A DNA stretch of 64,000 nucleotides, taken from Eledone cirrhosa. Taxonomy: Eukaryota. Location of the stretch: assembly GCA_964016885.1 (NCBI GenBank), contig OZ024742.1:32302001-32366000 (forward strand). Reading direction: 5' to 3'. How positions within the stretch are numbered: position 1 is the stretch's first letter; each line of letters begins with the position of its first letter. A program made the translations under genes and the position numbers. The notes under the pieces were generated by a model. It saw only the letters and a list, made by a program, of their open reading frames with translations, made no database searches and was not told where the DNA came from. Below are positions 31,716-56,175 of this stretch, in pieces.

Positions 31716-33279
31716 TGAAAGAAGAACTATAATTGAGAAAAAATTGGCATGAACTGTAATATAATATATTTTAATTACTCTAGCAAGTCCAGGAGATAAC
31801 TTTGGATAGTTTCAGTCTTATTATAAGATCATCAATGAAGCATAAACTGTGGAAGTTTGTATGTCAACCAACGTTACTGACAAGTCTGAATAAAGGAAGG
31901 GATGATCATATCTAGAACACATTTGCTCATAGGTCTGCTCAGTGATCGTTTACCTAGGGTTAAATAAACAAACAAACCACCACCTCACCAGTGTTGGATC
32001 AAGAAATGTAATGGATGCTGTCCCCTTATCACCTTGAACTGAAATAGCATGTGAGCGGGCGCGGGCGCGCACGTGCACACACACACACACACACACGTGT
32101 GCGTTTATTGTAGTGAGAGAGAGAGAGTTGAGGATGGAACGAGAGAGAGACAAACAGACAAACAACTAAATATAGTGGTAGATAGAAAAATGGAACAGAC
32201 ACAGTAGAAGGCAGTGTCAATATTTTGTTGTAGCCTTAAGATCAAGAAGACAATCAAGACAATCGCGTTATGACCACCCCGCCTACTGTCACAGAATAAA
32301 GGGAAAAAAACGGAAGGGTTGATTATGAATGGAACACCTTTGATCATAACTGTTCAATCAAGACTGATCTAGGGCTAAACAATATTTTATTCATAGTCTA
32401 TATAGGACGACATTATCAGATGACTTTTTTTTCTTTTTTTCAATAAGACATATGATCTGAGGGAGATTTGGATGCTATTTCTAATAGGTCGAGCGACAAC
32501 ATATGGGGGCTATCTGGTTGGCTCATATGTATATGTGCAGATAACACATGAGTATAGGTTTTCAGTATGTACGTATGTGCATATATATATATATATGTAC
32601 AAGCAGTATATACGTATGTGCATATATATGTACAAGCAGTATGTATGTACGTACTCAAGTATGTATGTACACAGTCTATAAGCAATATGAAAGCATGTAC
32701 GTGCGAACATTTGTATGTATACGTACATGTAATATGTATTTCTGATGTGCAAATTACGTGTATTGTATGTATGCATGTATATATGTATAGAGGGGGGGGG
32801 GGGGTGCGCGCGCGCGCACTTTACATAGTAGTCTTTCCTCTTTGCTAAGAACCCAAGTCTCTCTCCTCATACATATGTATGCCTATTGAATGTATGTATA
32901 TGCACGAGTGAAAGTACTAGTGTGAGTGCGTGTCTGTCTGCACGGCTGTGGATCTCGTTGAGTGAATGTGTGTGTGTATGTACCCCACGCGCATCAGTGT
33001 GTGTATGGGCATGTGAGTATGTGTTTGTGTGTGTCTATACGAGTATCAGTATGTGTGTGTATACGTGAGTGTCATTGCGCGTGTTTGTGAGTTTGCATTA
33101 GTATCAATATATGTGTCTATGTCTACAAGAGTGTGTGTGCGTGCGTCTGTCTTAATGTGTGCGCGTGCACGAGTGTAAGCGTACAAATGAACGTATGTGC
33201 ATAGTTTCCTGCACGAGTGTGTCTGAACGATTCTAAGTACGCGTTTATGTATATGTGTGTGTATGTGTGTGTATGTGTG

Positions 33280-33318
<39 letters not shown>

Positions 33319-33953
33319 GTGTGTATGTGTTCGTATGACTACACGTATGTTTTTAAACAGATTTTCGCGACATTTCCTTACCAAGGACCCACAATCATTG
33401 CTGCCATTGTCGTACTAGTAATAGTAGTAGTAGTAGTCACCTCGGATAAGTACTGCTGTTAATAAAATGCCACCACCACCACCAATCAGAGTAGCAGAAT
33501 CAGCTGGGAAATACTTCGTGTGTGTATGTGTAAGAGAGACAGACAGAGGGTGATAGAGGAGAGTTTGAATCAGAGAGAGAGAGGGAGAGTAGCAGAGAAA
33601 ACGGACGTTAAATGATGATAGATATGCAGATAGAAGGATAGATACATAGATGGAAAGATAAATAGAGAGATAGATGGACGGATGGATAGAGAGTTGAAGG
33701 CAAGGAAAAGGAAATAAAGTCGGTCGGTGTTGTAATTAATAATATATGTATGTGAATGGCCGTAAAAACAACGAGAGAGCCTCTAGGTGGTCGCTCGACA
33801 TGCTCAAAATGGCAACCAAACCTCTCAAATCATTTCGACAACAAATTCCTTGCTGTCAAAATGGCATGAGCTCAGCCGCAGGGCTCTGACTTCCTACTAT
33901 CCTAAGTATCGAGTACTCTGCTGATACTAGTTTAAACTGGTATAATCCTGATA

Positions 33954-34007
<54 letters not shown>

Positions 34008-34339
34008 TGAGAGAGAGAGAGAGAGAGAAGGGGCTGATGGATAGATCGAAATAGATTGGTAAACAGGTATAGGGAGAGATGGACCAATAGACAGACAAAC
34101 ATACAGACTGATAGACAGACATAGTGACAGATAAACAGATAGGTAGATAAACAAAAATAGATTGGTAGACATAGTATGGGATCGATGAACAGCGTCTTGT
34201 TGCCATGAAGTCTCTATATGAATGCCCTAGTATTTGTGTTTGGATAAATGGTGCGAAGTACAAATCATTGAATGTGGGTGTCAGACTGTGCCAAGGGTGC
34301 GTACTACCAACTCTCCTGTTCATTATCTTAATAGACAGT

Positions 34340-34523
34340 GGGCGTGGATTGGCAGTATCAGTAGAGGGTCGGACGCCATGCTTTCCAGCATAGTTACGTC
34401 CCTTTACGATCTGAGTTCAAATCCCGCCGAGGTTGACTTTGCCTTTCATCCTTACGGGGTCGATAAAACAAAGTACCAGTAATACACTGGGTAATTGCTG
34501 GCCTTGTGCCTAAAGTAGAAACA
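34340..34523 (+). mobile_element. tRNA-derived SINE with 18-bp TSD, nested in an old RTE fragment (34170-35330)
   Basis: ATTATCTTAATAGACAGT at 34322-34339 and 34524-34541. Confidence 0.9.
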
Positions 34524-36809
34524 ATTATCTTAATAGACAGTATTGGCATGTGTAACCAGGTTGGAAATGGTATCGAGACTGGCAGGTGTAGGATCAGTCA
34601 GCTGGAATTAGCAGACGACATGGTACTACTTAAGAGTCAGAAGGTGATCTCCAATAAGCACTTCATTGGTTTCTTGCTGGATGCTGGATGGCTGGAATGA
34701 AAATCACTGCTACGAAGACGTACTCTCATCCTCTCAAAGAAGCCTGCACAGTGCACTCAACGTGTGAGTGGAGTTCCACTGAATTTCAAGATGTCCCGAG
34801 GCCATGTTCATGAGTGATGGAAGGCAGAGGCTGAATTAAGTGCAAGAATTGCTTGAGCGGGTGCAGTAATGTGCCAGCTTCAGCATTCAGTCATCAGAAG
34901 GGAGGCAAGTGTATAAGCCTAACTCGCAATCATCAATTCGGAATTCATGCCAATCCTTACCTATGGTCATGACTGAAAAAATACGATTGTGAATGCAAGC
35001 AGTTGAAATGGGGTTCCTCTGAAGGGTCTTTGGAGTAACATTACTTGATAGAGTACATAGCTGGAAGATTAGAGAGTCACTCCATCTAAGCTACTACTTC
35101 TCCAAATTAAGAGATCACCGCTTCAATACTACTGGCATGTGATTAGAATGTCCCAGGAAAGAATCGCTGGACAGATTTTACAAAACCATCCAGAAGACCT
35201 AGGGGTAGACCCTGAGCAAGATGGTTAGATAACATCCATGAGCATTGCTGGTCTCACTTGGGATTCAGCTGGATCAATTGGAGATGATTGCTTCCGACAG
35301 AACCCACTAGAAGTAGTACTTGTAGACTCTCCCCCACCCCAGTAATAAGTAGGCAAAGAAGGAGACTGATAAACAGAGTCAGACACTGAGACAGATAGAA
35401 ACAGGCAGGTAGAAATATAACAATAGCTAAAGATAGGAATATGAAGAGAGACAAATGGTTAAATGACTGCACCCTCGTTTTTGTGTCTGTTTTTCATGCT
35501 GGCATAGGTTGGACAATGATCTAAGTTCCCATGTAATTCCTGGCAGAAGCATCACCACTTTTCTGGTGACAGGTACTTCATTGACCCCCAAAAGGATGCG
35601 AGACAAATTTGAACTTGGCAGGATTTGAACTCAGAGCAAGGAGAGTTGGAACAAACACCAAGACATTCGAGCCAATTTGCCATCTAAACATCTCTTTTAC
35701 TGGTTTCAATCATTTTAGTTGACCCCAGTACTTATTTCTTTTTAAGTGTGGTTTCAGGCAGTTTAATATCAAAAGGGTTGATAGTTGTTGGGGGTGGGCT
35801 AAAGTGTCTTTAAATCCTGAAGATAAGAAGCACCTGTTCTATGTGGTGCAATCTTTGCAACGTTTTTTTTATGGGCATTTACCAAGAGAGATCTGCAGGG
35901 TTCTAAGATGAGTGCTTGATGTGAAGGCTTACAGCCTAGAGGTTAAGGTATTGGGCTTACAATTGTAAGGTCACGAGTTGGATTCCTGGACCTGACAGTG
36001 GTTTGTGTCCTTGAGCAAGACATTTTATTTCACATTTAGCTGGAAAAATGAGTACCACCAGCAGCAGAGGCTTAACCCTGATATGGACTGGCTTCCAGTT
36101 CAGGGGGTCGTCATTTGCCAAACTGTATCAGCCATTGCCAGATACAACATCAGTGGTGTGGCGAAGAATAACTGGTATGCATGGGTGATTGCTGGTCTTC
36201 CACAAAACACCTTACCTAGGCTTGTGCCTTGGAGAAGAATTTTCCAGGTGTAAACCCATAGCCAGTAAAAGAGGCAAGGCTGACAAGACCCTGTTGGAAG
36301 TTATTTTTGCAGTTTCTGTTCAGGGTTTCAGTGTAAATTTGTCATTAGGTGACTAGGTTGCATGTGGATGATGCTTTGGTCATGTATGTATAAACCCATA
36401 ACACCCGATGGAACCATAGGGCATTTTTTAAACACGGAGACCATCCTTCCTCCAGGTCTGAGAGAGAGAGCGGGGGGGGGGGGTCAATCCCTGTACTGGA
36501 CTAGTACTTTTATTGACCTTGGAAAGATGAAAGGCAGTGAACTGTGGCAGAGTTTGAACTCAGCACAGAGCAGTGAAACAAATACAGTGAAGCATTCTGT
36601 TTAATGTTCTAACACTGTTTGCTTTGATCATAGGTCTGCTCAATTACAGTTGACCTGGAATTAAACAATAACAACATATTATCAAGTAAGACTATGTGGT
36701 TCATTTACCTGCTAGAAATAGCATCCAAACCTAATCACAACATGTCCTTTTAAAAAAGAAAAGATGTATTGAGTAATGAGACACTATATTTGAAAAGGAC
36801 ACAGGTTCT

Positions 36810-38060
36810 AGCTGTCTGCTGCAAGTTGAAAATACTTTATTTAGGCGAATATGATGCATAGAGTGCTAGATATCTAAGTGCTGGCTCTGTAAAGTGTAAT
36901 GCCAGCTGCAAAAGAATAAGTGTTGTTGGAGGTGCTACCAAGTAGGTTGCACCTCCAACAAGAAGGAGTGCAGGGAATAAAACTGAACCTTGGGTAACAA
37001 GAGGAGTGAGGTGGGGGAAGAACTATTATAGTAATGATGCAATTTGATAGGAAAGTTCTGAGATCAAAGGGAGATTGACGTAATTTTGAGCTCAGTCCTC
37101 ACCACTTCTGGTCTTCCTCTTCAGCACCCTCCTTCCACTTCCTCTGATACTTTCATGTAATAATTATTCATTGTGCACATCACATGTCACACCTGCTCTA
37201 TCTTGCACACTGAGGTCAACACTTCAAATGCTGAACTTTCCTTTTAGCACACGTGTGCTCTATTGTTCATGATGAACAAATGAGGCCAAGTGCTCAGGCT
37301 TTTGGATTCATGATCATAACATCAAGAGTTCAATTCACAGACCAAGTGACAAATTGTGTTCTTGAGGGAGTTGGAAAGTTGCTTCATTTCACATTGCTCC
37401 AGCCCACTCAGTTGCTGAAGACCCCTGCAACAGACCGATATCTAGTTTAGCGAAGGAGAGTCTTTTCATGATAGGACTGGGGTCCCTATCGTTAAAACAC
37501 CAAAGATGCAACCACATAGGAGGCCATCTAAACAGACATCTGTGTGAGCTGTAACAACATCCAGTGGAGCATGCACACTCATTACTATGCAATATTGTAC
37601 TTCATACATAAGCATCATATAGTTTTTTGGCTTTTGTTTTTAATTGGTGTAATGCAAGTTCCAGTGGCTTCACAAGCTCTCTGGGACTAAAGAGATTGAT
37701 GCCTTTATGAGTAAAGAAGGAGTTCCAGAGTACCAATTTTATGGAAAGACTGGGCATTAGTGTTAGTGTGAGGCATGAAGATAGATACAATGTGATGATT
37801 GAAGAGACAAGTGAGCTGGCAGTGCTTGAGTAGAAGTGCTATGAGACCCAGTAAGCTCTGAGGAGCAGAGATCATTATAGTAACAGTATTTGAGGTAGAG
37901 GGAGGAGACAGCATATCTGTGGGCCAGAAACTGGAGTGTCAGAGAGTGACTATAGACTGATTAACAGAGTGGGTTTTTTTCTGGATATGAGCAACAGCAG
38001 TATTCCACTGTGGGTCTAAGATAACAGTGTGAGTACTGGCATGACCCCAGTCTGCCCTTC
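36810..38060 (-). mobile_element. Very old LINE (CR1/L2/Jockey-like) RT fragments
   Basis: PQGSVLFPALLL near 36960-36995 and ..SF..LVLWNS near 37715-37780; heavily decayed. Confidence 0.4.
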
Positions 38061-38690
38061 ATTTGTTTTAAGAATTATGCTGCCTATAGAAGTAGATAAT
38101 AGCTCCTGGAACTTTTTCCACCCAATATGGTTTCACTTATGCCTTCCCAATACACACTACTGCCAAATAGTTTTCTGAAACTGTCTAACTTGACAGATAG
38201 ACAAATACCGAAACAGCTCTTGATAACATAAGAGATAGATAGATCGATACATGGATAAGAAGACATCTAGATGGAAATAGGAACAGAAATAAACAGCTAG
38301 AAATATAGACCAACCAGCTAGATCGGTGAACAGAGAGATAATTGCACAAGTTATAGAAATAGAGCAGAATAGACATCTGCATATATATATATATATAGTT
38401 AGATGGAAAGCTAGAGAGATAAACACAGAGATATACAGAACTAGATGGACAGGTAGACAGACATCTAAATGAACATGTCGAGTTAGATAGCAAAATAAAC
38501 AAGTTCAGAGAGATAGCTAGATGGACATGTAGAGAGACATAAATAGCTAGAGAGAAAGAAAGAGGTAGAAAGATACAGAGACACAGCTAGATGGACATGA
38601 GAGGTGTAGCTAGATGGAGAGAAATGGACAGGCAAAGAGAGAGACAAGTAGAGAGATAGACAGCTAGGTGGACAGGTAGAGAGAGAGATA

Positions 38691-39884
38691 AATTTCTTTA
38701 TTAGCCACAAGGGCACAAAAGATGGGGACAAATACAAATGGGGAGTTTACATAAAGGTATATGAAAATAAAACTTAATAAAATAAGATATGTTTCTTTTA
38801 TTTGCCACTAGGGCATCAAAAGTGGGACAAGTACAAAGGGGGGAGTTTACACAAAAAGGCGTCCTCAATAAGGAGGAGGCAATAACAAAATATAAAAATA
38901 AAATAAGATATAACAAAAAATAAAATTTATAACAAAATCCTCAATAGAGAGGAGGCGCCTTGGGGGGGTCGCACACACCCCCGAAAAAAGTGTGCAACCC
39001 TTTTCCTCAGGAGCACAGAGAGGGGGTGCTCCCTCGTTCCTTCCTCTTTTCCACCTACAGGCTTATGTAAAGAGAAGGCCCATTCACACGGGCCATTCTC
39101 GCCACTTTCACCCACCTTTCATAAAAACGACTGGGGTGCAGCACCTCTCTCTCCATCCTGATCCTTCTTCCGAAATGATATCGGAAGAAACGGACCAGTT
39201 GTTGGCCAGAGAGAAAGGTGCCTGACCTCAGTCCTTTCAGACGCGTCCACCATACAACCTCTTTCGCCATGGCTATTAAGCACAGAAACACCGCCTCTGC
39301 TTCATCTTTGAAGGGGGGAGGCGGCTTGATCATTACAATAGACTCGGTGGTCAACCGGATCGGTCCCACCCTTGACAGCAGTTGTTCGACATAGCCCCAC
39401 AGATCGGCTACGCCCGAGCAGTGTACCAATGCGTGTGCAACGGTTTCCTCGTCGCACACGCATATGGGACAGATCTTTTTGGCGGGGTCCCTACCCGGGT
39501 GCCCGTGTCTGTAGAGCCTTTCTCGAACGGGTAAAGCCCCTCGGTAGCACTGCCAGGTCAGGGACTTCTGGAAGTTGTCCATAGGTCCCGGGCTGAATGT
39601 CCTACCGAACAGGCTGGCCAGTTCGTCTTCCTCCATGTCTAGGGCTTCTCCGAGGGCGTCGTCGCACCTGCTGCGTACCAGCCCTCTATAGAATGTTGCG
39701 GTGGAGTCTCCACTGATAACCGGATCCGCCTGCCAGAGGGCGGTGAGCGCCTGGGCACACTCAGTGTGCCAGGCGCCCAGTTTTCTCGGTCTTTGCTTGA
39801 CCCAGGATTGCAGCTCGGTGAGTGAGACGAGTCTGGGAAAGGTTCGTCTCACAAACGAGGCCCACACCGGTTGTCCGGTGAGGA
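38691..39884 (-). mobile_element. Tx1/L1-group retrotransposon 3' fragment, copy 1, with an extra diverged 3' end at 38691-38789
   Basis: ORF 39055-39867 has SLTWQCYRGALPVRERL..CPIC..EETVAHALVHC (zf-RVT/CCHC end of L1/Tx1 ORF2), followed by a pyrimidine-rich 3' UTR and AATAAA; GC-rich relative to its surroundings. Confidence 0.88.
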
Positions 39885-42415
39885 AGAGATAGACAGCTAT
39901 GTGGACAAGTAGAGACAGAGATAGCTAGGTGGACAGGTAGAGAGATAGACAGCTCTGTGGACAAGTAGAGACAGAGATAGCTAGGTGGACAGGTAGAGAC
40001 AGAGATAGCTAGGTGGACAGGTAGAGAGAGAGATAGCTATGTGAACAGGTAGAGAGAGAGACAGCTGTCTCTCTCTACCTGTCCACCCAGCTATGTGGAC
40101 AGGTAGAGACAGAGAGACAGCTAGGTGGACAGGTAGAGACAGAGAGACAGCTAGGTGGACAGGTAGAGAGAGAGAGATAGCTAGGTGGACAGGTAGAGAG
40201 AGGGAGAGAGAGAGAGGTGGACAGGTAGAGAGAGAGACAGCTAGGTGGACAGGTAGAGAGAAAGAGACAGCTATGTGGACAGGTAGAAAGAGAGAGACAG
40301 CTATGTGGACAGGTAGAGGGAGAGAGACAGCTATGTGGACAGGTAGAGAGAGAGAGATAGCTAGGTGGACAGGTAGAGAGAGACAGCTAGGTGGACAGGT
40401 AGAGAGAGAGAGAGACAGCTAGGTGGACAGGTAGAGAGAGAGAGAGACAGCTAGGTGGACAGGTAGAGAGAGAGAGACAGCTAGGTGGACAGGTAGAGAG
40501 AGAGAGACAGCTAGGTGGACAGGTAGAGAGAGAGAGACAGCTAGGTGAACAGGGAGAGAGAGAGAGAGATAGCTAGGTGGACAGGTAGAGAGAGAGAGAT
40601 AGCTAGGTGGACAGGTAGAGAGAGAGAGACAGCTAGGTGGACAGGTAGAGAGAGAGACAGCTAAGTGGACAGGTAGAGAGAGTGACAGCTAAGTGGACAG
40701 GTAGAGAGAGTGACAGCTAAGTGGACAGGTAGAGAGAGTGACAGCTAAGTGGACAGGTAGGGAGAGAGAGAGACAGCTAGGTGGACAGGTAGAGAGAGAG
40801 AGACAGCTAGGGGGACAGGTAGAGAGAGAGAGAGATAGCTAGGTGGACAGGTAGAGAGAGAGAGAGACAGCTAGGTGGACAGGTAGAGAGAGAGAGAGAC
40901 AGCTAGGTGGACAGGTAGAGAGAGATAGGTGGACAGGTAGAGAAAGATAGACAGCTAGGTGGACAGGTAGAGAGAGAGAGACAGCTAGGTGGACAGGTAG
41001 AGAGAGAGAGACAGCTAGGTGGACAGGTAGAGAGAGAGAGAGACAGCTAGGTGGCCTGGTAGAGAGAGATAGCTAGGTGGACAGGTAGAGAGAGAGAGCT
41101 AGGTGGACAGGTAGAGAGAGAGAGACAGCTAGGTGGACAGGTAGAGAGAGAGAGACAGCTAGGTGGACAGGTAGAGAGAGAGACAGCTAGGTGGACAGGT
41201 AGAGAGAGAGAGACAGCTGTCTCTCTTTACCTGTCCACCTAGCTAGGTGGACAGGGAGAGAGAGTGATAGCTAGGTGGACAGGTAGAGAGAGAGAGATAG
41301 CTGTCTCTCTCTCTCTCTACCTGTCCACTTAGCTGTCTCTCTCTCTACATGTCCACCTAGCTAAGTGGACAGGTAGAGAGAGTGACAGCTAAGTGGACAG
41401 GTAGAGAGAGAGAGACAGCTAGGTGGACAGGTAGAGAGAGAGACAGCTAGGTGGACAGGTAGAGAGAGAGAGATAGCTAGGTGGACAGGTAGAGAGAGAG
41501 AGATAGCTAGGTGGACAGGTAGAGAGAGAGAGATAGCTAGGTGGACAGGTAGAGAGAGAGAGATAGCTAGGTGGACAGGTAGAGAAAGAGACAAAGGTGG
41601 ACAGGTAGAGAGAGAGAGACAGCTAGGTGGACAGGTAGAGAGAGAGAGACAGCTAGGTGAACAGGGAGAGAGAGAGAGAGAGATAGCTAGGTGGACAGGT
41701 AGAGAGAGAGAGATAGCTAGGTGGACAGGTAGAGAGAGAGAGACAGCTAGGTGGACAGGTAGAGAGAGAGATAGCTAGGTGGACAGGTAGAGAGAGAGAC
41801 AGCTAGGTGGACAGGTAGAGAGAGAGACAGCTAAGTGGACAGGTAGAGAGAGAGACAGCTAAGTGGACAGGTAGAGAGAGTGACAGCTAAGTGGACAGGT
41901 AGAGAGAGTGACAGCTAAGTGGACAGGTAGAGAGAGAGAGAGACAGCTAAGTGGACAGGTAGGGAGAGAGAGAGACAGCTAGGTGGACAGGTAGAGAGAG
42001 AGAGACAGCTAGGGGGACAGGTAGAGAGAGAGAGATAGCTAGGTGGACAGGTAGAGAGAGAGAGAGAGAGACAGCTAGGTGGACAGGTAGAGAGAGATAG
42101 GTGGACAGGTAGAGAGAGAGAGAGAGAGCTAGGTGGACAGGTAGAAAAAAATAGACAGCTAGGTGGACAGGTAGAGAGAGAGAGACAGCTAGGTGGACAG
42201 GTAGAGAGAGAGATAGCTAGGTGGACAGGTAGAGAGAGAGAGACAGCTAGGTGGACAGGTAGAGAGAGAGAGAGACAGCTAGGTGGACTGGTAGAGAGAG
42301 ATAGCTAGGTGGACAGGTAGAGAGAGAGAGACAGCTAGGTGGACAGGTAGAGAGAGAGATAGCTAGGTGGACAGGTAGAGAGAGACAGCTAGGTGGACAG
42401 GTAGAGAGAGAGATA

Positions 42416-43279
42416 AGTTTCTTTTATTTGCCACTAGGGCATCAAAAGTGGGACAAGTACAAAGGGGGGAGTTTACACAAAAAGGCGTCCTCAATAAGGA
42501 GGAGGCAATAACAAAATATAAAAATAAAATAAGATATAACAAAAATAAAATTTTTAACAAAATCCTCAATAGAGAGGAGGCGCCTTGGGGGGTCGCACAC
42601 ACCCCCGAAAAAAGTGTGCAACCCTTTTCCTCAGGAGCACAGAGAGGGGGTGCTCCCTCGTTCCTTCCTCTTTTCCACCTACAGGCTTATGTAAAGAGAA
42701 GGCCCATTCACACGGGCCATTCTCGCCACTTTCACCCACCTTTCATAAAAACGACTGGGGTGCAGCACCTATCTCTCCATCCTGATCCTTCTTCCGAAAT
42801 GATATCGGAAGAAACGGACCAGTTGTTGGCCAGAGAGAAAGGTGCCTGACCTCAGTCCTTTCAGACGCGTCCACCATACAACCTCTTTCGCCATGGCTAT
42901 TACGCACAGAAACACCGCCTCTGCTTCATCTTTGAAGGGGGGAGGCGACTTGATCATTACAATAGACTCGGTGGTCAACCGGATCGGTCCCACCCTTGAC
43001 AGCAGTTGTTCGACATAGCCCCACAGATCGGCTACGCCCGAGCAGTGTACCAATGCGTGTGCAACGGTTTCCTCGTCGCACACGCATCTGGGACAGATCT
43101 TTTTGGCGGGGTCCCTACCCGGGCGCCCGTATCTGTAGAGCCTTTCTCGAACGGGTAAAGCCCCTCGGTAGCACTGCCAGGCCAGGGACTTCTGGAAGTT
43201 GTCCATAGGTCCCGGGCTGAATGTCCTACCGAACAGGCTGGCCAGTTCGTCCTCCTCCATGTCTAGGGCTTCTCCGAGG
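42416..43279 (-). mobile_element. Tx1/L1-group retrotransposon 3' fragment, copy 2, 11-bp TSD
   Basis: Near-identical to 38790-39654 but more 5'-truncated; AGAGAGAGATA at 42405-42415 and 43280-43290. Confidence 0.9.
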
Positions 43280-46200
43280 AGAGAGAGATAGCTAGGTGGA
43301 CAGGTAGAGAGAGAGATAGCTAGGTGGACAGGTAGAGAGAGTGAGACAGCTAGGTGGACAGGTAGAGAGAGAGAGACAGCTAGGTGGACAGGTAGAGAGA
43401 GAGAGACAGCTGTCTCTCTTTACCTGTCCACCTAGCTAGGTGGACAGGGAGAGAGAGTGATAGCTAGGTGGACAGGTAGAGAGAGAGAGATAGCTGTCTC
43501 TCTCTCTCTCTACCTGTCCACTTAGCTAGGTGGACATGTAGAGAGAGAGACAGCTAAGTGGACAGGTAGAGAGAGTGACAGCTAAGTGGACAGGTAGAGA
43601 GAGAGAGACAGCTAGGTGGACAGGTAGAGAGAGAGACAGCTAGGTGGACAGGTAGAGAGAGAGATAGCTAGGTGGACAGGTAGAGAGAGAGAGATAGCTA
43701 GGTGGACAGGTAGAGAGAGAGACAGCTAGGTGGACAGGTAGAGAGAGACAGCTAGGTGGACAGGTAGAGAGAGAGAGACAGCTGTCTCTCTTTACCTGTC
43801 CACCTAGTTAGGTGGAGAGGTAGAGAGAGTGATAGCTAGGTGGACAGGTAGAGAGAGAGAGATAGCTAGGTGGACAGGTAGAGAGATAGAGACAGCTAAG
43901 TGGACAGGTAGAGAGAGAGAGACAGCTAGGTGGACAGGTAGAGAGATAGAGACAGCTAGGTGGACATGTAGAGAGAGAGACAGCTAAGTGGACAGGTAGA
44001 GAGACAGCTAGGTGGACAGGTAGAGAGAGAGACAGCTAGGTGGACAGGTAGAGAGAGACAGCTAGGTGAACAGGTAGAGAGAGAGAGATAGCTATGTGGA
44101 CAGATAGATAGAGAGAGAGACAGCTAGGTGGACAGGTAGAGAGAGAGAGAGAGACAGCTAGGTGGACAGGTAGAGAGAGAGAGAGAGACAGCTAGGTGGA
44201 CAGGTAGAGAGAGAGAGAGAGACAGCTAGGTGGACAGGTAGAGAGACAGCTAGGTGGACATGTAGAGAGAGAGAAAGATAGCTAGGTGGACAGTTAGAGA
44301 GAGAGAAAGATAGCTAGGTGGACAGTTAGAGAGAGAGACAGATAGGTGGACAGGTAGAGAGACAGACAGCTAGGTGGACAGGTAGAGAGAGAGAGACAGC
44401 TAGGTGGACAGGTAGAGAGAGAGACAGCTAGGGGGACAGGTAGAGAGAGAGAGATAGCTAGGTGGACAGGTAGAGAGAGAGAGAGACAGCTAGATGGACA
44501 GGTAGAGAGAGATAGGTGGACAGGTAGAGAGAGAGAGAGAGCTAGGTGGACAGGTAGAGAAAGATAGACAGCTAGGTGGACAGGTAGAGAGAGAGAGACA
44601 GCTAGGTGGACAGGTAGAGAGAGACAGCTAGGTGGACAGGTAGAGAGAGAGATAGCTAGGTGGACAGGTAGAGAGAGTGAGACAGCTAGGTGGACAGGTA
44701 GAGAGAGAGAGACAGCTAGGTGGACAGAGAGAGACAGCTGTCTCTCTTTACCTGTCCACCTAGCTAGGTGGACAGGGAGAGAGAGTGATAGCTAGGTGGA
44801 CAGGTAGAGAGAGAGAGATAGCTGTCTCTCTCTCTCTCTACCTGTCCACTTAGCTGTCTCTCTCTCTACATGTCCACCTAGCTAAGTGGACAGGTAGAGA
44901 GAGTGACAGCTAAGTGGACAGGTAGAGAGAGAGACAGCTAGGTGGACAGGTAGAGAGAGAGACAGCTAGGTGGACAGGTAGAGAGAGAGACAGCTAGGTG
45001 GACAGGTAGAGAGAGACAGCTAGGTGGACAGGTAGAGAGAGAGAGACAGCTGTCTCTCTTTACCTGTCCACCTAGTTAGGTGGACAGGTAGAGAGAGTGA
45101 TAGCTAGGTGGACAGGTAGAGAGAGAGAGATAGCTAGGTGGACAGGTAGAGAGATAGAGACAGCTAAGTGGACAGGTAGAGAGATAGAGACAGATAAGTG
45201 GACAGGTAGAGAGATAGAGACAGCTAGGTGGACAGGTAGAGAGAGAAAGACAGCTAGGTGGACAGGTAGAGAGATAGAGACAGCTAGGTGGACATGTAGA
45301 GAGAGAGACAGCTAAGTGGACAGGTAGAGAGAGAGACAGCTAAGTGGACAGGTAGAGAGACAGCTAGGTGGACAGGTAGAGAGAGAGAGATAGCTATGTG
45401 GACAGATAGATAGAGAGAGAGACAGCTAGGTGGACAGGTAGAGAGAGAGAGAGAGAGACAGCTAGGTGGACAGGTAGAGAGAGAGAGAGAGACAGCTAGG
45501 TGGACAGGTAGAGAGAGAGAGAGAGACAGCTAGGTGGACAGGTAGAGAGACAGCTAGGTGGACATGTAGAGAGAGAGAAAGATAGCTAGGTGGACAGTTA
45601 GAGAGAGAGACAGATAGGTGGACAGGTAGAGAGAGAGACAGCTAGGTGGACAGGTAGAGAGAGAGAGACAGCTAGGTGGACAGGTAGAGAGAGAGACAGC
45701 TAGGTGGACAGGTAGAGAGAGAGAGAGACAGTTAGGTGGACAGGTATAGAGAGAGACAGCTAGGTGGACAGGTAGAGAGAGAGAGACAGCTAGGTGGACA
45801 GGTAGAGAGATACAGCTAAGAGGGCAGGTAGAGAGAGAGAGAGAGATAGCTAGGTGGACAGGTAGAGAGACAGCTAAGTGGACAGGTAGAGAGACCGCTA
45901 GGTGGAAGGTAGAGAGACAGCTAGGTGGACAGGTAGAGAGACAGCTAGGTGGACAGGTAGAGAGACAGCTAGGTGGACAGGTAGAGAGACAACTAAGTGG
46001 ACAGGTACAGAGACAGCTAGGTGGACAGGTAGAGAGACAGCTAGGTGGACAGGTAGAGAGACAGCTAAGTGGACAGGTAGAGAGACAGCTAAGTGGACAG
46101 GTAGAGAGACAGCTAAGTGGACAGGTAGAGAGACAGCTAAGTGGACAGGTAGAGAGACAGCTAGGTGGACAGGTAGAGAGACAGCTAGGTGGACAGGTAG

Positions 46201-49200
46201 AGAGACAGCTAGGTGGACAGGTAGAGAGACAGCTAAGTGGACAGGTAGAGAGACAACTAGGTGGACAGGTACAGAGACAGCGAGGTGGACAGGTAGAGAG
46301 ACAGCTAGGTGGACAGGTAGAGAGACAGCTAAGTGGACAGGTAGAGAGACAGCTAAGTGGACAGGTAGAGACAGCTAAGTGGACAGGTAGAGAGACAGCT
46401 AGGTGGACAGGTAGAGAGACAGCTAGGTGGACAGGTAGAGAGACAGCTAAGTGGACAGGTAGAGAGACAGCTAAGTGGACAGGTAGAGAGACAGCTAGGT
46501 GGACAGGTAGAGAGACAGCTAAGTGGACAGGTAGAGAGACAGCTAGGTGGACAGGTAGAGAGACAGCTAAGTGGACAGGTAGAGAGACAGCTAGGTGGAC
46601 AGGTAGAGAGACATCTAAGTGGACAGGTATAGAGACAGCTAAGTGGACAGGTAGAGAGACAGCTAGGTGGACAGGTAGAGAGAGAGAGACAGCTAGGTGG
46701 ACAGGTAGAGAGAGACAGCTAGGTGGACAGGTAGAGAGAGACAGCTAGGTGGACAGGTATGGAGAGAGACAGCTAGGTGGACAGGTATGGAGAGAGACAG
46801 CTAGATGGACAGGTAGAGAGAGAGACAGCTAGGTGGACATGTAGAGAGAGAGAGACAGCTAGATGGACAGGTAGAGAGAGACAACTAGGTGCACAGGTAG
46901 AGAGAGAGATAGCTAGGTGGACAGGTAGAGAGAGAGAGAGACAGCTAGGTGGACAGGTAGAGAGAGAGACAGCTAGGTGGACAGGTAGAGAGAGAGACAG
47001 CTAGGTAGACAGGTAGAGAGAGAGATAGGTGGACAGGTAGAGAGAGAGAGAGACAGCTAGGTGGACAGGTAGAGAGAGACAGCTAGGTGGACAGGTAGAG
47101 AGAGACAGCTAGGTGGACAGGTATGGAGAGAGACAGCTAGGTGGACAGGTATGGAGAGAGACAGCTAGATGGACAGGTAGAGAGAGAGACAGCTAGGTGG
47201 ACATGTAGAGAGAGAGAGACAGCTAGATGGACAGGTAGAGAGAGACAACTAGGTGCACAGGTAGAGAGAGAGATAGCTAGGTGGACAGGTAGAGAGAGAG
47301 AGAGACAGCTAGGTGGACAGGTAGAGAGAGAGACAGCTAGGTGGACAGGTAGAGAGAGACAGCTAGGTGGACATGTAGAGAGAGAGAGAGATTGATAGGT
47401 GGACATGTAGAGAGAGAGAGAGCTAGGTGGACAGGTAGAGAGAGAGAGAGACAGCTAGGTGGACAGGTAGAGAGAGAGAGAGACAGCTAGGTGGACAGGT
47501 AGAGAGAGAGAGACAGCTAGGTGTACAGGTAGAGAGAGAGAGAGCTAGGTGGACAGATAGATAGAGAGAGAGACAGCTAGGTGGACAGGTAGAGAGAGAG
47601 AGAGAGAGACAGCTAGGTGGACAGGTAGAGAGAGAGAGAGAGACAGCTAGGTGGACAGGTAGAGAGAGAGAGAGAGACAGCTAGGTGGACAGGTAGAGAG
47701 AGAGAGAGAGACAGCTAGGTGGACAGGTAGAGAGACAGCTAGGTGGACATGTAGAGAGAGAGAAAGATAGCTAGGTGGACAGTTAGAGAGAGAGACAGAT
47801 AGGTGGACAGGTAGAGAGAGAGACAGCTAGGTGGACAGGTAGAGAGAGAGAGACAGCTAGGTGGACAGGTAGAGAGAGAGACAGCTAGGTGGACAGGTAG
47901 AGAGAGAGAGAGACAGTTAGGTGGACAGGTATAGAGAGAGACAGCTAGGTGGACAGGTAGAGAGAGAGAGACAGCTAGGTGGACAGGTAGAGAGATACAG
48001 CTAAGAGGGCAGGTAGAGAGAGAGAGAGAGACAGCTAGGTGGACAGGTAGAGAGACAGCTAAGTGGACAGGTAGAGAGACCGCTAGGTGGAAGGTAGAGA
48101 GACAGCTAGGTGGACAGGTAGAGAGACAGCTAGGTGGACAGGTAGAGAGACAGCTAGGTGGACAGGTAGAGAGACAACTAAGTGGACAGGTACAGAGACA
48201 GCTAGGTGGACAGGTAGAGAGACAGCTAGGTGGACAGGTAGAGAGACAGCTAAGTGGACAGGTAGAGAGACAGCTAAGTGGACAGGTAGAGAGACAGCTA
48301 AGTGGACAGGTAGAGAGACAGCTAGGTGGACAGGTAGAGAGACAGCTAGGTGGACAGGTAGAGAGACAGCTAGGTGGACAGGTAGAGAGACAGCTAAGTG
48401 GACAGGTAGAGAGACAACTAGGTGGACAGGTACAGAGACAGCGAGGTGGACAGGTAGAGAGACAGCTAGGTGGACAGGTAGAGAGACAGCTAAGTGGACA
48501 GGTAGAGAGACAGCTAAGTGGACAGGTAGAGACAGCTAAGTGGACAGGTAGAGAGACAGCTAGGTGGACAGGTAGAGAGACAGCTAGGTGGACAGGTAGA
48601 GAGACAGCTAAGTGGACAGGTAGAGAGACAGCTAAGTGGACAGGTAGAGAGACAGCTAGGTGGACAGGTAGAGAGACAGCTAAGTGGACAGGTAGAGAGA
48701 CAGCTAGGTGGACAGGTAGAGAGACAGCTAAGTGGACAGGTAGAGAGACAGCTAGGTGGACAGGTAGAGAGACATCTAAGTGGACAGGTATAGAGACAGC
48801 TAAGTGGACAGGTAGAGAGACAGCTAGGTGGACAGGTAGAGAGAGAGAGACAGCTAGGTGGACAGGTAGAGAGAGACAGCTAGGTGGACAGGTAGAGAGA
48901 GACAGCTAGGTGGACAGGTATGGAGAGAGACAGCTAGGTGGACAGGTATGGAGAGAGACAGCTAGATGGACAGGTAGAGAGAGAGACAGCTAGGTGGACA
49001 TGTAGAGAGAGAGAGACAGCTAGATGGACAGGTAGAGAGAGACAACTAGGTGCACAGGTAGAGAGAGAGATAGCTAGGTGGACAGGTAGAGAGAGAGAGA
49101 GACAGCTAGGTGGACAGGTAGAGAGAGAGACAGCTAGGTGGACAGGTAGAGAGAGAGACAGCTAGGTAGACAGGTAGAGAGAGAGATAGGTGGACAGGTA

Positions 49201-52200
49201 GAGAGAGAGAGAGACAGCTAGGTGGACAGGTAGAGAGAGACAGCTAGGTGGACAGGTAGAGAGAGACAGCTAGGTGGACAGGTATGGAGAGAGACAGCTA
49301 GGTGGACAGGTATGGAGAGAGACAGCTAGATGGACAGGTAGAGAGAGAGACAGCTAGGTGGACATGTAGAGAGAGAGAGACAGCTAGATGGACAGGTAGA
49401 GAGAGACAACTAGGTGCACAGGTAGAGAGAGAGATAGCTAGGTGGACAGGTAGAGAGAGAGAGAGACAGCTAGGTGGACAGGTAGAGAGAGAGACAGCTA
49501 GGTGGACAGGTAGAGAGAGACAGCTAGGTGGACATGTAGAGAGAGAGAGAGATTGATAGGTGGACATGTAGAGAGAGAGAGAGCTAGGTGGACAGGTAGA
49601 GAGAGAGAGAGACAGCTAGGTGGACAGGTAGAGAGAGAGAGACAGCTAGGTGGACAGGTAGAGAGAGAGAGACAGCTAGGTGTACAGGTAGAGAGAGAGA
49701 GAGCTAGGTGGACAGGTATAGAGAGAGACAGCTAGGTGGACAGGTAGAGAGAGAGAGAGACAGCTACGTGGACAGGTAGAGAGATACAGCTAAGTGGGCA
49801 GGTAGAGAGAGAGACAGCTAGGTGGACAGGTAGAGAGACAGCTAGTAAGAGAGGTAGAGAGACAGCTAGATGGACAGGTAAAGAGACAGCTAGGTGGACA
49901 GGTAGAGAGACAGCTAAGTGGACAGGTAGAGAGACAGCTAAGTGGACAGGTAGAGAGACAGCTAGGTGGACAGGTAGAGAGACCGCTAGGTGGACAGGTA
50001 GAGAGACAGCTAAGTGGACAGGTAGAGAGACAGCTAAGTGGACAGGTAGAGAGACAGCTAAGTGGACAGGTAGAGAGACAGCTAAGTGGACAGGTAGAGA
50101 GACAGCTAAGTGGACAGGTAGAGAGACAGCTAGGTGGACAGGTGAAGAGACAGCTAGGTGGACAGGTAGAGAGACAGCTAAGTGGGCAGGTAGAGAGACA
50201 GCTAGGTGGACAGGTAGAGACAGCTAGAGACAGCTAAGTGGACAGGTAGAGAGACAGCTAGGTGGACAGGTAGAGAGACAGCTAAGTGGACAGGTAGAGA
50301 GACAGCTAAGTGGACAGGTAGAGAGACAGCTAGGTGGACAGGTAGAGAGACAGCTAGGTGGACAGGTAGAGAGACAGCTAAGTGGACAGGTAGAGACAGC
50401 TAAGTGGACAGGTAGAGAGACAGCTAAGTGGACAGGTAGAGAGACAGCTAAGTGGACAGGTAGAGACAGCTAAGTGGACAGGTAGAGAGACAGCTAAGTG
50501 GACAGGTAGAGAGACAGCTAAGTGGACAGGTAGAGAAAGGTAGAGAGACAGCTAAGTGGACAGGTAGAGAAAGGTAGAGAGACAGCTAAGTGGACAGGTA
50601 GGTGGGCAGGTAGAGAGACAGCTAAGTGGGCAGGTAGAGAGACAGCTAAGTGGACAGATAGAGAGACAGCTAAGTGGACAGGTAGAGAGACAGCTAAGTG
50701 GACAGGTAGAGAGACAGCTAGAGAGACAGCATGGTGGACAGGTAGAGAGACAGCTAGGTGGACAGGTAGAGAGACAGCTAGGTGGACAGGTAGAGAGACA
50801 GCTAAGTGGACCGGTAGAGAGACAGTTAGGTGGACAGGTAGAGAGACAGCTAGATGGACAGGTAGAGAGACAGCTCAGTGGACAGGTAGAGAGACAGCTA
50901 AATGGACAGGTAGAGAGACAGCTAAGTGGACAGATAGAGAGACAGCTAAGTGGACAGGTAGAGAGACAGCTAAGTGGGCAGGTAGAGAGACAGCTAAGTG
51001 GACAGATAGAGAGACAGCTAAGTGGACAGGTAGAGAGACAGCTAGAGAGACAGCATGGTGGACAGGTAGAGAGACAGCTAGGTGGACAGGTAGAGAGACA
51101 GCTAGGTGGACAGGTAGAGAGACAGCTAAGTGGACCGGTAGAGAGACAGTTAGGTGGACAGGTAGAGAGACAGCTAGATGGACAGGTAGACAGACAGCTA
51201 AGTGGACAGGTAGAGAGGCAGCTAAGTGGACAGGTAGAGAGACAGCTAAGTGGACAGGTAGAGAGACAGCTAAGTGGACAGGTAGAGAGACAGCTAAGTG
51301 GACAGGTAGAGAGACAGCTAAGTGGACAGGTAGAGAGACAGCTAGGTGGGCAGATAGAGAGACAGCTAAGTGGACAGGTAGAGAGACAGCTAGAGAGACA
51401 GCTAGGTGGACAGGTAGAGAGACAGCTAGGTGGACAGGTAGAGAGACAGCTAGAGAGACAGCTAGGTGGACAGGTAGAGAGACAGCTAGGTGGACAGGTA
51501 GAGAGACAGCTAGAGAGACAGCTAGGTGGACAGGTAGAGAGACAGCTAGGTGGACAGGTAGAGAGACAGCTAGGTGGACAGGTAGAGAGACAGCTAGGTG
51601 GGCAGGTAGAGAGACAGCTGGGTGGACAGGTAGAGAGACAGCTAGGTGGGCAGGTAGAGAGACAGCTAGGTGGGCAGGTAGAGAGACAGCTAAGTGGACA
51701 GGTAAAGAGACAGCTAGGTGGACAGGTAGAGAGACAGCTAAGTGGACAGGTAGAGACAGCTAAGTGGGCAGATAGAGAGACAGCTAGGTGGACAGGTAGA
51801 GAGACAGCTAAGTGGACAGGTAGAGAGACAGCTAAGTGGACAGTTAGAGAGACAGCTAGAGAGACAGCTAGGTGGACAGGTAGAGAGACAGCTAGGTGGA
51901 CAGGTAGAGAGACAGCTAGAGAGACAGGTAGGTGGACAGGTAGAGAGACAGCTAGGTGGACAGGTAGAGAGACAGCTAGAGAGACAGCTGGGTGGACAGG
52001 TAGAGAGACAGCTAGGTGGACAGGTAGAGAGACAGCTAGGTGGACAGGTAGAGAGACAGCTAGGTGGGCAGGTAGAGAGACAGCTAAGTGGACAGGTAGA
52101 GAGACAGCTAAGTGGACAGGTAGAGAGACAGCTAGGTGGGCAGGTAGAGAGACAGCTAAGTGGACAGGTAGAGAGACAGCTAGGTGGGCAGGTAGAGAGA

Positions 52201-55200
52201 CAGCTAAGTGGACAGGTAGAGAGACAGCTAAGTGGACAGGTATAGAGACAGCTAAGTGGACAGGTAGAGAGACAGCTAGGTGTACAGGTAGAGAGACAGC
52301 TAGGTGGACAGGTAGAGAGACAGCTAGGTGGACAGGTAGAGAGACAGCTAGGTGGACAGGTAGAGAGACAGCTAGGTGGGCAGGTAGAGAGACAGCTAAG
52401 TGGACAGGTAGAGAGACAGCTAAGTGGACAGGTAGAGAGACAGCTAAGTGGACAGGTAGAGAGACAGCTAGGTGGACAGGTAGAGAGACAGCTAAGTGGA
52501 CAGGTAGAGAGACAGCTAGGTGGACAGGTAGAGAGACAGCTCGGTGGACAGGTAGAGAGACAGCTAGGTGGACAGGTAGAGAGAGAGAGACAGCTAGGTG
52601 GACAGGTAGAGAGAGAGAGACAGCTAGGTGGACAGGTAGAGAGAGAGAGACAGCTAGGTGGAGAGGTAGAGAGATACAGCTAAGTGGGCAGGTAGAGAGA
52701 GAGACAGCTAGGTGGACAGGTAGAGAGACAGCTAGGTGGACAGGTAGAGAGACAGCTAGGTGGACAGGTAGAGAGACAGCTAGGTGGACAGGTAGAGAGA
52801 CAGCTAGGTGGACAGGTAGAGAGACAGCTAGGTGGACAGGTAGAGAGACAGCTAGGTGGACAGGTAGAGAGACAGCTAGGTGGACAGGTAGAGAGACAGC
52901 TAGGTGGACCGGTAGAGATAGGTAGAGAGACAGCTAAGTGGACAGGTAGAGAGACAGCTAAGTGGACAGGTAGAGAGACAGTTAGGTGGACAGGTAGAGA
53001 GACAGCTAGATGGACAGGTAGAGAGACAGCTAAACGGATAGGTAGAGAGACAGCTAGGTGGACACGTAGAGAGACAGCTAAGTGGACAGGTAGAGAAAGG
53101 TAGAGAGACAGCTAAGTGGACAGGTAGAGAGACAGCTAAGTGGACAGGTAGAGAGACAGCTAGGTGGGCAGATAGAGAGACAGCTAAGTGGACAGGTAGA
53201 GAGACAGCTAAGTGGACAGGTAGAGAGACAGCTAAGTGGACAGGTAGAGAGACAGCTAAGTGGACAGGTATAGAGACAGCTAAGTGGACAGGTAGAGAGA
53301 CAGCTAGGTGGACAGGTAGAGAGACAGCTAGGTGGACAGGTAGAGAGACAGCTAAGTGGACAGGTAGCGAGACAGCTAGGTGGACAGGTAGAGAGACAGC
53401 TAAGTGGACAGGTAGAGAGACAGCTAAGTGGACAGGTAGAGAGACAGCTAAGTGGACAGGTAGAGAAAGGTAGAGAGACAGCTAGGTGGACAGGTAGAGA
53501 GACAGCTAAGTGGACAGGTAGAGAGACATCTAGCAGGACAGGTAGAGAGACAGCTAGGTGGACAGGTAGAGAGACAGCTAGGTGGACAGGTAGAGAGACA
53601 GCTAAGTGGACAGGTAGAGAGACAGCTAAGTGGACAGGTAGAGAGACAGCTAGGTGGACAGGTAGAGAGACAGCTAGGTGGACAGGTAGAGAGACAGCTA
53701 GGTGGACAGCTAGAGAGACAGCTAAGTGGACAGGTAGAGAGACAGCTAGGTGGACAGGTAGAGAGACAGCTAAGTGGGCAGATAGAGAGACAGCTAGGTG
53801 GACAGGTAGAGAGACAGCTAAGTGGACAGGTAGAGAGACAGCTAGGTGGACAGGTAGAGAGACAGCTAAGTGGACAGGTAGAGAGACAGCTAGGTGGACA
53901 GGTAGAGAGACAGCTAAGTGGGCAGATAGCGAGACAGCTAGGTGGACAGGTAGAGAGACAGCTAAGTGGACAGGTAGAGAGACAGCTAGGTGGACAGGTA
54001 GAGAGACAGCTAAGTGGACAGGTAGAGAGACAGCTAGGTGGACAGGTAGAGAGACAGCTAAGTGGACAGGTAGAGAGACAGCTAGGTGGACAGGTAGAGA
54101 GACAGCTAAGTGGACAGGTAGAGAGACAGCTAAGTGGACAGGTAGAGAGACAGCTAAGTGGACAGGTAGAGAGACAGCTAAGTGGACAGATAGAGAGACA
54201 GCTAGGTGGACAGGTAGAGAGACAGCTAAGTGGACAGGTAGAGAGACAGCTAGGTGGACAGGTAGAGAGACAGCTAAGTGGGCAGATAGAGAGACAGCTA
54301 GGTGGACAGGTAGAGAGACAGCTAAGTGGACAGGTAGAGAGACAGCTAAGTGGACAGGTAGAGAGACAGCTAAGTGGACAGGTAGAGAGACAGCTAAGTG
54401 GACAGATAGAGAGACAGCTAGGTGGACAGGTAGAGAGACAGCTAAGTGGACAGGTAGAGAGACAGCTAGGTGGACAGGTAGAGAGACAGCTGAGTGGACA
54501 GGTAGAGAGACAGCTAGGTGGACAGGTAGAGAGACAGCTAAGTGGACAGGTAGAGAGACAGCTAGGTGGACAGGTAGAGAGACAGCTAAGTGGACAGGTA
54601 GAGAGACAGCTAGGTGGACAGGTAGAGAGACAGCTAAGTGGGCAGATAGAGAGACAGCTAGGTGGACAGGTAGAGAGACAGCTAAGTGGACAGGTAGAGA
54701 GACAGCTAGGTGGACAGGTAGAGAGACAGCTAGCTGGACAGGTAGAGAGACAGCTAAGTGGACAGGTAGAGAGACAGCTAGGTGGACAGGTAGAGAGACA
54801 GCTAAGTGGGCAGATAGAGAGACAGCTAGGTGGACAGCTAAGTGGACAGGTAGAGAGACAGCTAGGTGGACAGGTAGAGAGACAGCTAAGTGGACAGGTA
54901 GAGAGACAGCTAGGTGGACAGGTAGAGAGACAGCTAAGTGGGCAGATAGAGAGACAGCTAGGTGGACAGGTAGAGAGACAGCTAAGTGGACAGGTAGAGA
55001 GACAGCTAGGTGGACAGGTAGAGAGACAGCTAAGTGGACAGGTAGAGAGACAGCTAGGTGGACAGGTAGAGAGACAGCTAAGTGGACAGGTAGAGAGACA
55101 GCTAGGTGGGCAGATAGAGAGACAGCTAGGTGGACAGGTAGAGAGACAGCTAAGTGGACAGGTAGAGAGACAGCTAGGTGGACAGGTAGAGAGACAGCTA

Positions 55201-56091: not shown

Positions 56092-56175
<84 letters not shown>

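What the first reader, a model, noticed from the sequence alone, without database searches (positions are those of the whole stretch)
40063..45077. Satellite monomers are inverted precisely between AGCT palindromes
Seen: nine tracts (11 monomers) read backwards in an otherwise head-to-tail array: 40063-40092, 41215-41244, 41299-41362 (two), 43408-43437, 43492-43527, 43780-43809, 44736-44765, 44820-44883 (two), 45048-45077. Every boundary falls in AGCT (twice mutated to AGTT), with no gain or loss of bases. The inverted units differ from their left neighbours (e.g. the GGTAAAG variant, different AG length), so they are not simple fold-back copies. They reduce to about four distinct events later amplified with the array. 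Inference: each monomer behaves like an invertible cassette, through template switching at the 4-6 bp palindrome (AGCT/TAGCTA) or through cut-and-rejoin at AG^CT. I know of no description of this in a eukaryotic satellite.
Basis: partly seen in the sequence, partly recalled or inferred. Interest (0 to 1): 0.78.

Follow-up and report, generated by a model that had tools for sequence, protein, structure and literature searches.

The report
Flipped repeat units at AGCT palindromes
In one 16-kb repeat array, eleven short units read backwards exactly between AGCT palindromes; they likely come from two or three rare DNA-copying errors that array duplication multiplied, one of which built a hairpin whose loop then flipped, so this is a neat case of a known mutation type rather than a cassette-switching system.

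Summary
Observation confirmed: 9 tracts, 11 inverted units, every junction at AG^CT (two copies read AGTT). The array is a single-locus minisatellite (39885-55800), likely in intron 1 of a ZFAND2-like gene, not a satellite family. The tracts reduce to 2-3 primary inversions (4-5 bp inverted microhomology), multiplied by array duplications, plus one secondary flip. One 28-bp unit stands in both orientations, as exact reverse complements, inside a 22-bp perfect inverted repeat made by its inverted neighbour. AGCT precision follows from geometry: repeated copies of a palindrome are also inverted repeats, and AGCT is the only palindrome all units share. It is not a general cassette property: no inverted unit in the right 10 kb of the array (372 AGCT sites), in 11 other AGCT-junction arrays (830 sites), or inside non-palindromic arrays of a 157-array survey. 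It works like known 17-33 nt microinversions and hairpin-loop flips; I found no paper on this whole-unit, self-seeding form. Template switching is inferred; cut-and-rejoin has no support here. Raw reads over the array were not tested; shared private variants argue against artefact. The scan had not noted this elsewhere.

The parts
39885..55800 (+). Single-locus AG-rich minisatellite, units 24-36 bp with variable (AG)n, junction AG^CT; older variable part left of about 45850, more homogeneous 24-bp part to the right
40065..40090 (-). E1: one inverted 26-bp unit; possibly the same origin as E2 (same length, 2 differences, same higher-order register)
41217..41242 (-). E2 copy 1: inverted 26-bp unit with private GGTAAAG variant
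41301..41360 (-). E3/E4 copy 1: unit X (32 bp) and unit Y (28 bp, CATGT variant) both inverted
43410..43435 (-). E2 copy 2
43494..43525 (-). E3 copy 2: X inverted; left arm of the 22-bp inverted repeat around Y
43526..43553 (+). Y in forward orientation: exact reverse complement of 41333-41360 and 44854-44881; loop of the X-inverted/Z hairpin
43554..43581 (+). Unit Z: right arm of the inverted repeat (likewise 41361-41388 and 44882-44909)
43782..43807 (-). E2 sub-copy, right junction AGTT; X-like and Y units downstream are forward
44738..44763 (-). E2 copy 3
44822..44881 (-). E3/E4 copy 3: X and Y both inverted
45050..45075 (-). E2 sub-copy, right junction AGTT
42418..43280 (-). 3' fragment of an L1/Tx1-like retrotransposon inserted in higher-order copy 2 only, at GATA|GCT, 11-bp target duplication; 98.6% identical to the copy at about 38792-39884
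38693..39884 (-). Two nested L1/Tx1-like 3' fragments (zf-RVT domain) that separate the array from degenerate units at 38445-38690
29882..56851 (-). Inferred intron 1 of a ZFAND2-like gene (ATG at 56906; further exons near 16700 and 15240) that contains the array
   Evidence: gene model inferred from Pfam hits, recalled motifs and GT/AG ends, no RNA evidence

Best explanation
Eleven units of one minisatellite read backwards between AGCT palindromes, and they likely arose from two or three rare polymerase template switches primed on 4-5 bp at AGCT, which array duplications then multiplied. Because AGCT is a palindrome, two successive copies are also an inverted repeat (shown). A nascent end ending in AGCT would anneal to an AGCT on the opposite strand, copy one unit backwards and return at the next AGCT, giving a whole-unit inversion with clean junctions (inferred; a stalled fork or the break-repair version of the same copying cannot be told apart here). 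An inverted unit pairs with its forward neighbours over 20 bp or more (shown by sequence and folding). That long inverted repeat likely drove a second step: unit Y, the loop between inverted X and unit Z, flipped in place and is seen in both orientations (both states shown; direction inferred). Hairpins from the first event likely also favoured the next primary event two units away (inferred from clustering only).
For: Junction microhomology is 4-5 bp in 7 of 9 tracts, 2 bp in the two AGTT copies. Only AGCT/TAGCTA and CTAG give 4 bp or more. E2 exists in 5 copies sharing a private substitution and a characteristic right neighbour; X inverted exists in 3 copies. Y forward at 43526 is the exact reverse complement of Y at 41333 and 44854, with 116 identical bases on the left in all three copies, and the first mismatch of the flanking inverted repeat is at offset 22. 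Both Y states fold equally (-27.2 vs -27.3 kcal/mol) against -5.1 for three uninverted units. E1 and E2 are both 26 bp, differ at 2 positions, and lie 476 vs 436 bp and 742 vs 792 bp before the same two marker units. One-way strand switches elsewhere use several palindromes: AGCT at 3 of 19 (GATA)n sites; fold-backs of up to about 190 bp occur. Primate microinversions are 17-33 nt, mostly pure, flanked by 3-75 nt inverted repeats, 28 of 59 by 4-7 nt (PMC8755829).
Against: No ancestral allele was seen for E1, E2 or X, so in-place inversion versus insertion of an inverted copy is not settled for them. PMC8755829 doubts that two polymerase jumps can happen on 3-4 nt and prefers a break-repair model. 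Control arrays with equal or longer palindromes have no inverted unit, so the palindrome alone is not sufficient and the local trigger is unexplained. E1 = E2 is moderate only: the units between the markers differ. The seeding of E3 by E2 rests on proximity; a direct fold-back from E2 would copy units left of E2, whose variants do not match X and Y. No raw reads over the array were examined.
Confidence: 0.72

Rival explanations
1. The endonuclease of the GATA-targeting L1/Tx1-like element nicks the unit junction at GATA|GCT; failed insertions leave breaks that are repaired by microhomology copying at AGCT. Same repair chemistry as the main explanation, with a specific trigger that would explain why this array and this part of it.
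For: Three such fragments sit in or at this array, one inserted one base from the AG^CT centre. 13 of 16 element 3' ends in fetched DNA abut an AGATA/GATAG-type motif against 3.5% background (2 of the 16 come from a locus chosen for GATA repeats). 41 of 46 GATAGCT junctions lie in the left part, where all inversions are. Tx1-clade elements show target preference set by the endonuclease (PMC4494074, passages).
Against: E1 and E2 have GACAG, not GATAG, at both ancestral ends; only E3 has a GATAG end. The motif next to the element ends may be the element's own tail. The insertion at 42418 is in one higher-order copy only, so it postdates the inversions. The left part also has longer (AG)n tracts, an equally good correlate.
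Confidence: 0.1
2. Double cut and re-ligation: an enzyme (SPO11, topoisomerase II or an AGCT-specific nuclease) cuts two successive junctions and the unit is ligated back reversed.
For: Clean junctions and palindromic ends fit. SPO11 double cuts about 30 bp apart, and inverted insertions that may come from re-inserted double-cut fragments, are reported in mouse mutants (PMC13532658, passages). The unit length is 26-32 bp.
Against: That paper says each inverted insertion had microhomology and needed resection, and they came with deletions. No foreign fragment is joined at AG^CT in the array. 830 AGCT sites in 11 control arrays are untouched. Substitution types at G and C of AGCT (2 and 3) are like other positions (1-3). 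PMC8755829 argues two breaks about 20 nt apart are unlikely.
Confidence: 0.08
3. Each unit is an actively invertible cassette, switched by a site-specific recombinase or at a high, even rate along the array.
For: Every boundary is in one motif, and Y is seen in two orientations.
Against: No inversion among 372 AGCT junctions right of 45850. No recombinase domain among 126 window frames scanned. A 4-bp site and a loop under 33 bp are too short for synapsis (argument in PMC8755829). Y's flip is explained by its 22-bp arms.
Confidence: 0.03
4. Assembly, polishing or library artefact (for example ligation of AluI-cut fragments, or amplification chimeras).
For: AG^CT is the AluI site (recalled). 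Raw reads over the array were not examined.
Against: Inverted units carry private variants repeated in 5 and 3 higher-order copies, with diagnostic neighbours that differ between copies, and two junctions have since changed to AGTT. Random ligation would not reproduce this, and would hit other AGCT arrays.
Confidence: 0.04

Closest known systems
Inverted-repeat-flanked microinversions of primates (PMC8755829; parts 1-3 of 5 read)
   Same: Length 26-32 bp cut to cut, precise reverse complement, short inverted repeats abutting both ends.
   Different: Here the inverted repeat is two direct copies of one palindrome in a tandem array, so the inversion equals a whole unit; events are clustered and multiplied by duplication. 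The XY block, if it was one event, is about 60 bp.
Four-point template-switch model, spacer inversion (PMC5453318; passages read)
   Same: A short segment copied from the opposite strand with two switches; type 1-3-2-4 only inverts a fragment and was 45% of events.
   Different: Switch points here are fixed by a recurring palindrome; the passages I saw do not treat tandem arrays.
Hairpin-loop small inversions of chloroplast DNA (PMC6824564; passages read)
   Same: Loop between perfect arms found in both orientations, with equal folding energy, changing state repeatedly. Fits unit Y.
   Different: The stem here is itself the product of an earlier inversion in the array, and the loop is a whole repeat unit in a nuclear genome.
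Small inverted triplications (PMC13334657; abstract and outline only)
   Same: Short inverted segment between direct copies, about 6 bp junctions, replication error. An inverted-copy insertion in an array would look like this.
   Different: Those average 148/160/148 bp with a 30-bp spacer; gain of a unit cannot be shown here.
Immunoglobulin class-switch regions (recalled)
   Same: G-rich tandem repeat in an intron with one AGCT per unit.
   Different: No immunoglobulin exon found in the window, a ZFAND2-like host gene, and no deaminase footprint at AGCT.

Membership tests
IR-flanked microinversion | Inverted segment of about 17-33 nt | tested here: met
   Single units 26-32 bp; an XY block event, if real, would be 60 bp
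IR-flanked microinversion | Inverted repeat of 3 nt or more abutting both ends | tested here: met
   4-5 bp in 7 of 9 tracts; 2 bp in the two AGTT copies of E2, whose three other copies have 4
IR-flanked microinversion | Pure in-place replacement shown against an ancestral allele | tested here: inconclusive
   Shown for Y between paralogous copies; no ancestral allele for E1, E2 or X
Hairpin-loop (spacer) inversion | Loop between long perfect arms, both orientations observed | tested here: met
   22-bp arms; Y forward in 1 of 3 copies, inverted in 2 of 3
Hairpin-loop (spacer) inversion | Equal folding energy of the two states | tested here: met
   -27.2 vs -27.3 kcal/mol
Site-specific invertible cassette (recombinase switch) | Recombinase gene nearby and long dedicated sites | tested here: not met
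   No recombinase family among 126 window frames scanned (117 of 164 frames of 70 aa or more); site is 4-6 bp
Site-specific invertible cassette (recombinase switch) | Mixed orientations among cells | not testable with these tools
   Needs single-molecule reads across the array
Immunoglobulin switch region | Adjacent constant-region exons | tested here: not met
   None in the window; neighbours beyond the window were not scanned with Pfam
Immunoglobulin switch region | C1-set genes in the genome | tested here: inconclusive
   0 matches, but the controls were blank too
Immunoglobulin switch region | Deaminase mutation excess at AGCT | tested here: not met
   2 and 3 substitution types at G and C against 1-3 at other positions
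Multi-locus satellite DNA family | Arrays of the same unit at other loci | tested here: not met
   368+2 exact matches in the genome, 368+2 in the window; diverged arrays would be missed

The most novel reading that the evidence does not exclude
A self-seeding inversion cascade in a tandem array: the GATA-targeting retrotransposon's endonuclease nicks the palindromic unit junction and starts whole-unit inversions, each inversion builds long arms that flip the next unit so that the inverted state walks along the array, and this still goes on in germline or soma, tuning double-stranded RNA in the host gene's intron.
Probability: 0.1. Interest if true: 0.68.

Novelty: new variant of a known kind. 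Interest (0 to 1): 0.36.

Why it matters
It is a natural record of microinversions made on only 4-5 bp of inverted homology, the class whose mechanism is disputed (template switch versus break-induced copying, PMC8755829), with a follow-on flip caught in both states. It gives a simple rule: a tandem unit with a palindromic junction can invert as a whole unit, and one inversion creates arms for the next. That bears on how strand switches begin in satellite arrays and offers a compact reporter. A side effect is a strong predicted RNA hairpin in the intron (-160 vs -19 kcal/mol over 291 nt); no function is shown. The rarity in control arrays limits its general weight.

Tried and rejected
Immunoglobulin switch region: rejected. 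AGCT versus CTAG preference as a test for an AGCT enzyme: only E2 had both options, so 1 of 1, no power. Survey of 157 complex arrays in 1,064,000 bases: 4 flagged, being one quasi-palindromic array with two flipped units, one terminal fold-back at a TATA centre and two short terminal matches. In that call the left part of our own array was dropped by overlap merging, so the positive control was redone and found 9 of 9 tracts. Only 12 of the 157 have units of 40 bp or less with a palindrome. An abundant 48/49-bp repeat family gave 0 head-to-head and 5 tail-to-tail junctions within 30 bp, none a unit inversion inside an array. Public runs: the best holds 0.48 of sampled words of 41100-44000, close to the 0.52 share of the retrotransposon part, so it says nothing on the array; run X6 matches the flank 35000-38150 without differences in its long pieces and may be the source individual; X1, X9 and X10 hold only dispersed repeats there. 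A DNA search with the element's 3' end returned nothing (uninformative). PDB search of the exon: no hit. Earlier scan notes: none on this genome, one unrelated. Fold-back from E2 as the direct source of X and Y: lengths roughly fit, variants do not. The left-side clustering alone is weak: 21 of 60 substitution types are left of 45850, so 2-3 events all on the left has a chance of about 0.04-0.12.
Full report
Observation. The region lies in a tandem array at 39885-55800. Splitting it at AG^CT gives units of mostly 24-36 bp; 551 cores are forward and 11 reverse. All junctions read AG|CT except two right ends that read AG|TT. In a model array of the commonest unit, 4 of 1115 possible inversions of 15-61 bp have AGCT at both ends, so random breakage is excluded. 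But only 4-6 products have 4 bp or more of inverted homology, all at AGCT/TAGCTA or CTAG. Among the three unit variants tested AGCT is the only palindrome all share. The precision is thus what a microhomology rule gives in this sequence.

What the array is. A 25-base junction pattern has 368 forward and 2 reverse matches in the 3.0-Gb genome, and 368 and 2 in the window. The head-to-head junction (6 places) and the tail-to-tail junction (9 places) occur only here. So this is a single-locus minisatellite. A ZFAND2-type zinc-finger exon, an AN1 exon and two upstream exons found with recalled motifs and bounded by GT and AG place it in an inferred 27-kb first intron on the minus strand. No C1-set domain was found in the genome, but that search had blank controls. 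The repeat landscape resembles cephalopod genomes (recalled, not tested). L1/Tx1-like 3' fragments sit at 38693-39884 and 42418-43280.

How many events. The left part is built from higher-order copies of about 1.1-1.3 kb (markers). E2, a 26-bp unit with a private substitution, is inverted in 5 copies and always followed by the same unit type. X (32 bp) is inverted in 3 copies. Y (28 bp) is inverted in 2 of those 3 and forward in 1. E1 is 26 bp, differs from E2 at 2 positions and lies at a similar distance before two marker units (476 vs 436 bp; 742 vs 792 bp), so it may be the same event; the units between differ, so this is moderate. X and Y may have inverted as one block or one after the other. 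Either way there are 2-3 primary events and at least one secondary flip. The insertion at 42418 is in one copy only, so the inversions are older than it.

The secondary flip. Y forward at 43526-43553 is the exact reverse complement of Y at 41333-41360 and 44854-44881. The 116 bases to the left are identical in all three copies; to the right 58 bases match copy 1 and 28 were compared and match in copy 3. Inverted X and unit Z form a perfect 22-bp inverted repeat around Y. Both states fold at about -27 kcal/mol, against -5 for three uninverted units. This is a hairpin-loop inversion whose stem was made by an earlier inversion. Copies 2 and 3 share more flanking markers with each other than with copy 1, so Y forward in copy 2 may be a reversion; conversion between copies could blur this.

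Is it a general cassette property? No. The 372 AGCT junctions right of 45850 have no inverted unit. A pattern search for arrays with TAGCTAG junctions gave 6185 matches; I fetched the 10 other loci named in the first 100 rows, all on contig C1. Eleven arrays with 830 AGCT sites, including a 23-kb array of about 700 units, have no inverted unit; one 14-base flag was a local variant. Direct core counts were 641 to 0 and 81 to 0, and 80 to 0 in a further array that one search missed. In 157 complex arrays from 1,064,000 sampled bases none of the non-palindromic arrays has an internal inverted unit; one quasi-palindromic array has two flipped units (detector finds 9 of 9 tracts here). One-way strand switches are present in the genome and use several centres: AGCT at 3 of 19 (GATA)n sites, the rest mostly ATAT/TATA, GATATC or AGATCT; the (AG)n sites listed (first 100 of 238 rows) also vary. 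These are not unit inversions, so they support only the point that switching is not AGCT-specific.

Mechanism. Shown: junction geometry, shared ancestry of tracts, two states of Y, long arms. Inferred: copying from the opposite strand primed on 4-5 bp at AGCT for the primary events; a switch within the long arms for Y; a local boost from the first hairpins for E3, two units from E2. Unexplained: why this array. The left part has both longer (AG)n tracts (mean 4.8-4.9 vs 3.0-4.1 units) and 41 of 46 GATAGCT junctions, and the retrotransposon inserted at such a junction, so stalling on the purine tract, endonuclease nicks or one chance seed are all open. Cut-and-rejoin finds no support. An artefact is unlikely from the shared variants, but reads over the array were not examined; a public run matches the flank.

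Comparison with what is known. PMC8755829 (parts 1-3 of 5 read): 59 primate microinversions of 17-33 nt, 45 exact, all flanked by inverted repeats of 3-75 nt; it doubts template switching for the shortest repeats and proposes break-induced copying. PMC5453318 (passages): the four-point model, with fragment-only inversions as 45% of events. PMC6824564 (passages): chloroplast loop inversions that change state repeatedly with equal energy. PMC13334657 (abstract and outline), PMC13532658 (passages) and PMC4494074 (passages) bear on rivals. No supplements were read. Six searches for unit-sized, palindrome-bounded inversions in satellites or minisatellites listed no paper whose title or abstract start describes one; I read only the listings, and the library lacks most subscription journals. 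Larger strand switches in satellite arrays are known (listing).

Verdict. Real and well beyond chance; a new variant of a known mutation class. The cassette and enzyme readings are not supported. Interest 0.36.

Noticed in passing
window 38693, 38792, 42418; also 11615 and 12137 of the joined left flank, and blocks on C21, C24, C26, C27: An L1/Tx1-like family whose 3' ends abut AGATA/GATAG-type sequence in 13 of 16 hits (background 3.5%); looks like a (GATA)n-targeting element. The passages I read on Tx1 targets name (TC)n, (TTC)n, (TTCC)n and (TTTC)n, not GATA.
   Followed up: partly
window 29882-56851 (-): The 16-kb array fills most of the inferred first intron of a ZFAND2-like gene; on the transcribed strand each unit is a pyrimidine tract ending in AG, like a splice acceptor, and the inverted units predict strong RNA hairpins.
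   Followed up: partly
window 45850-49730: Two near-identical higher-order copies of about 2.16 kb (for example 45874 and 48059; 46663 and 48824), with no inverted units.
   Followed up: no
window 38445-38690 and 55800-56000: Degenerate units flank the array on both sides, suggesting it grew from a GATA/GACA-rich simple sequence.
   Followed up: no
window 21066-23610 and 25457-28004: Two 96.6% identical LINE copies in inverted orientation about 1.8 kb apart; one frame has a PHD finger after the reverse transcriptase.
   Followed up: no
L052:2850-3240; L043:1400-1750; L061:2880-3330: Long fold-back palindromes centred on (AG)n/(TC)n or (TA)n.
   Followed up: no
L063:2860-3500: Quasi-palindromic microsatellite array in which four units have one core orientation and the last has the reverse.
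   Followed up: no
G000 genome-wide: (AG)n..(TC)n junctions are far rarer than the backwards-read control (119 vs 1666 matches), and likewise for (GATA)n (27 vs 148).
   Followed up: no
G000:C1:133619250-133642261 (L199-L202): 23-kb array of 33-bp units with a TATAGCTA junction, about 700 units, all in one orientation.
   Followed up: partly
window 107-734: Pif1-type helicase fragments, probably a Helitron remnant.
   Followed up: no
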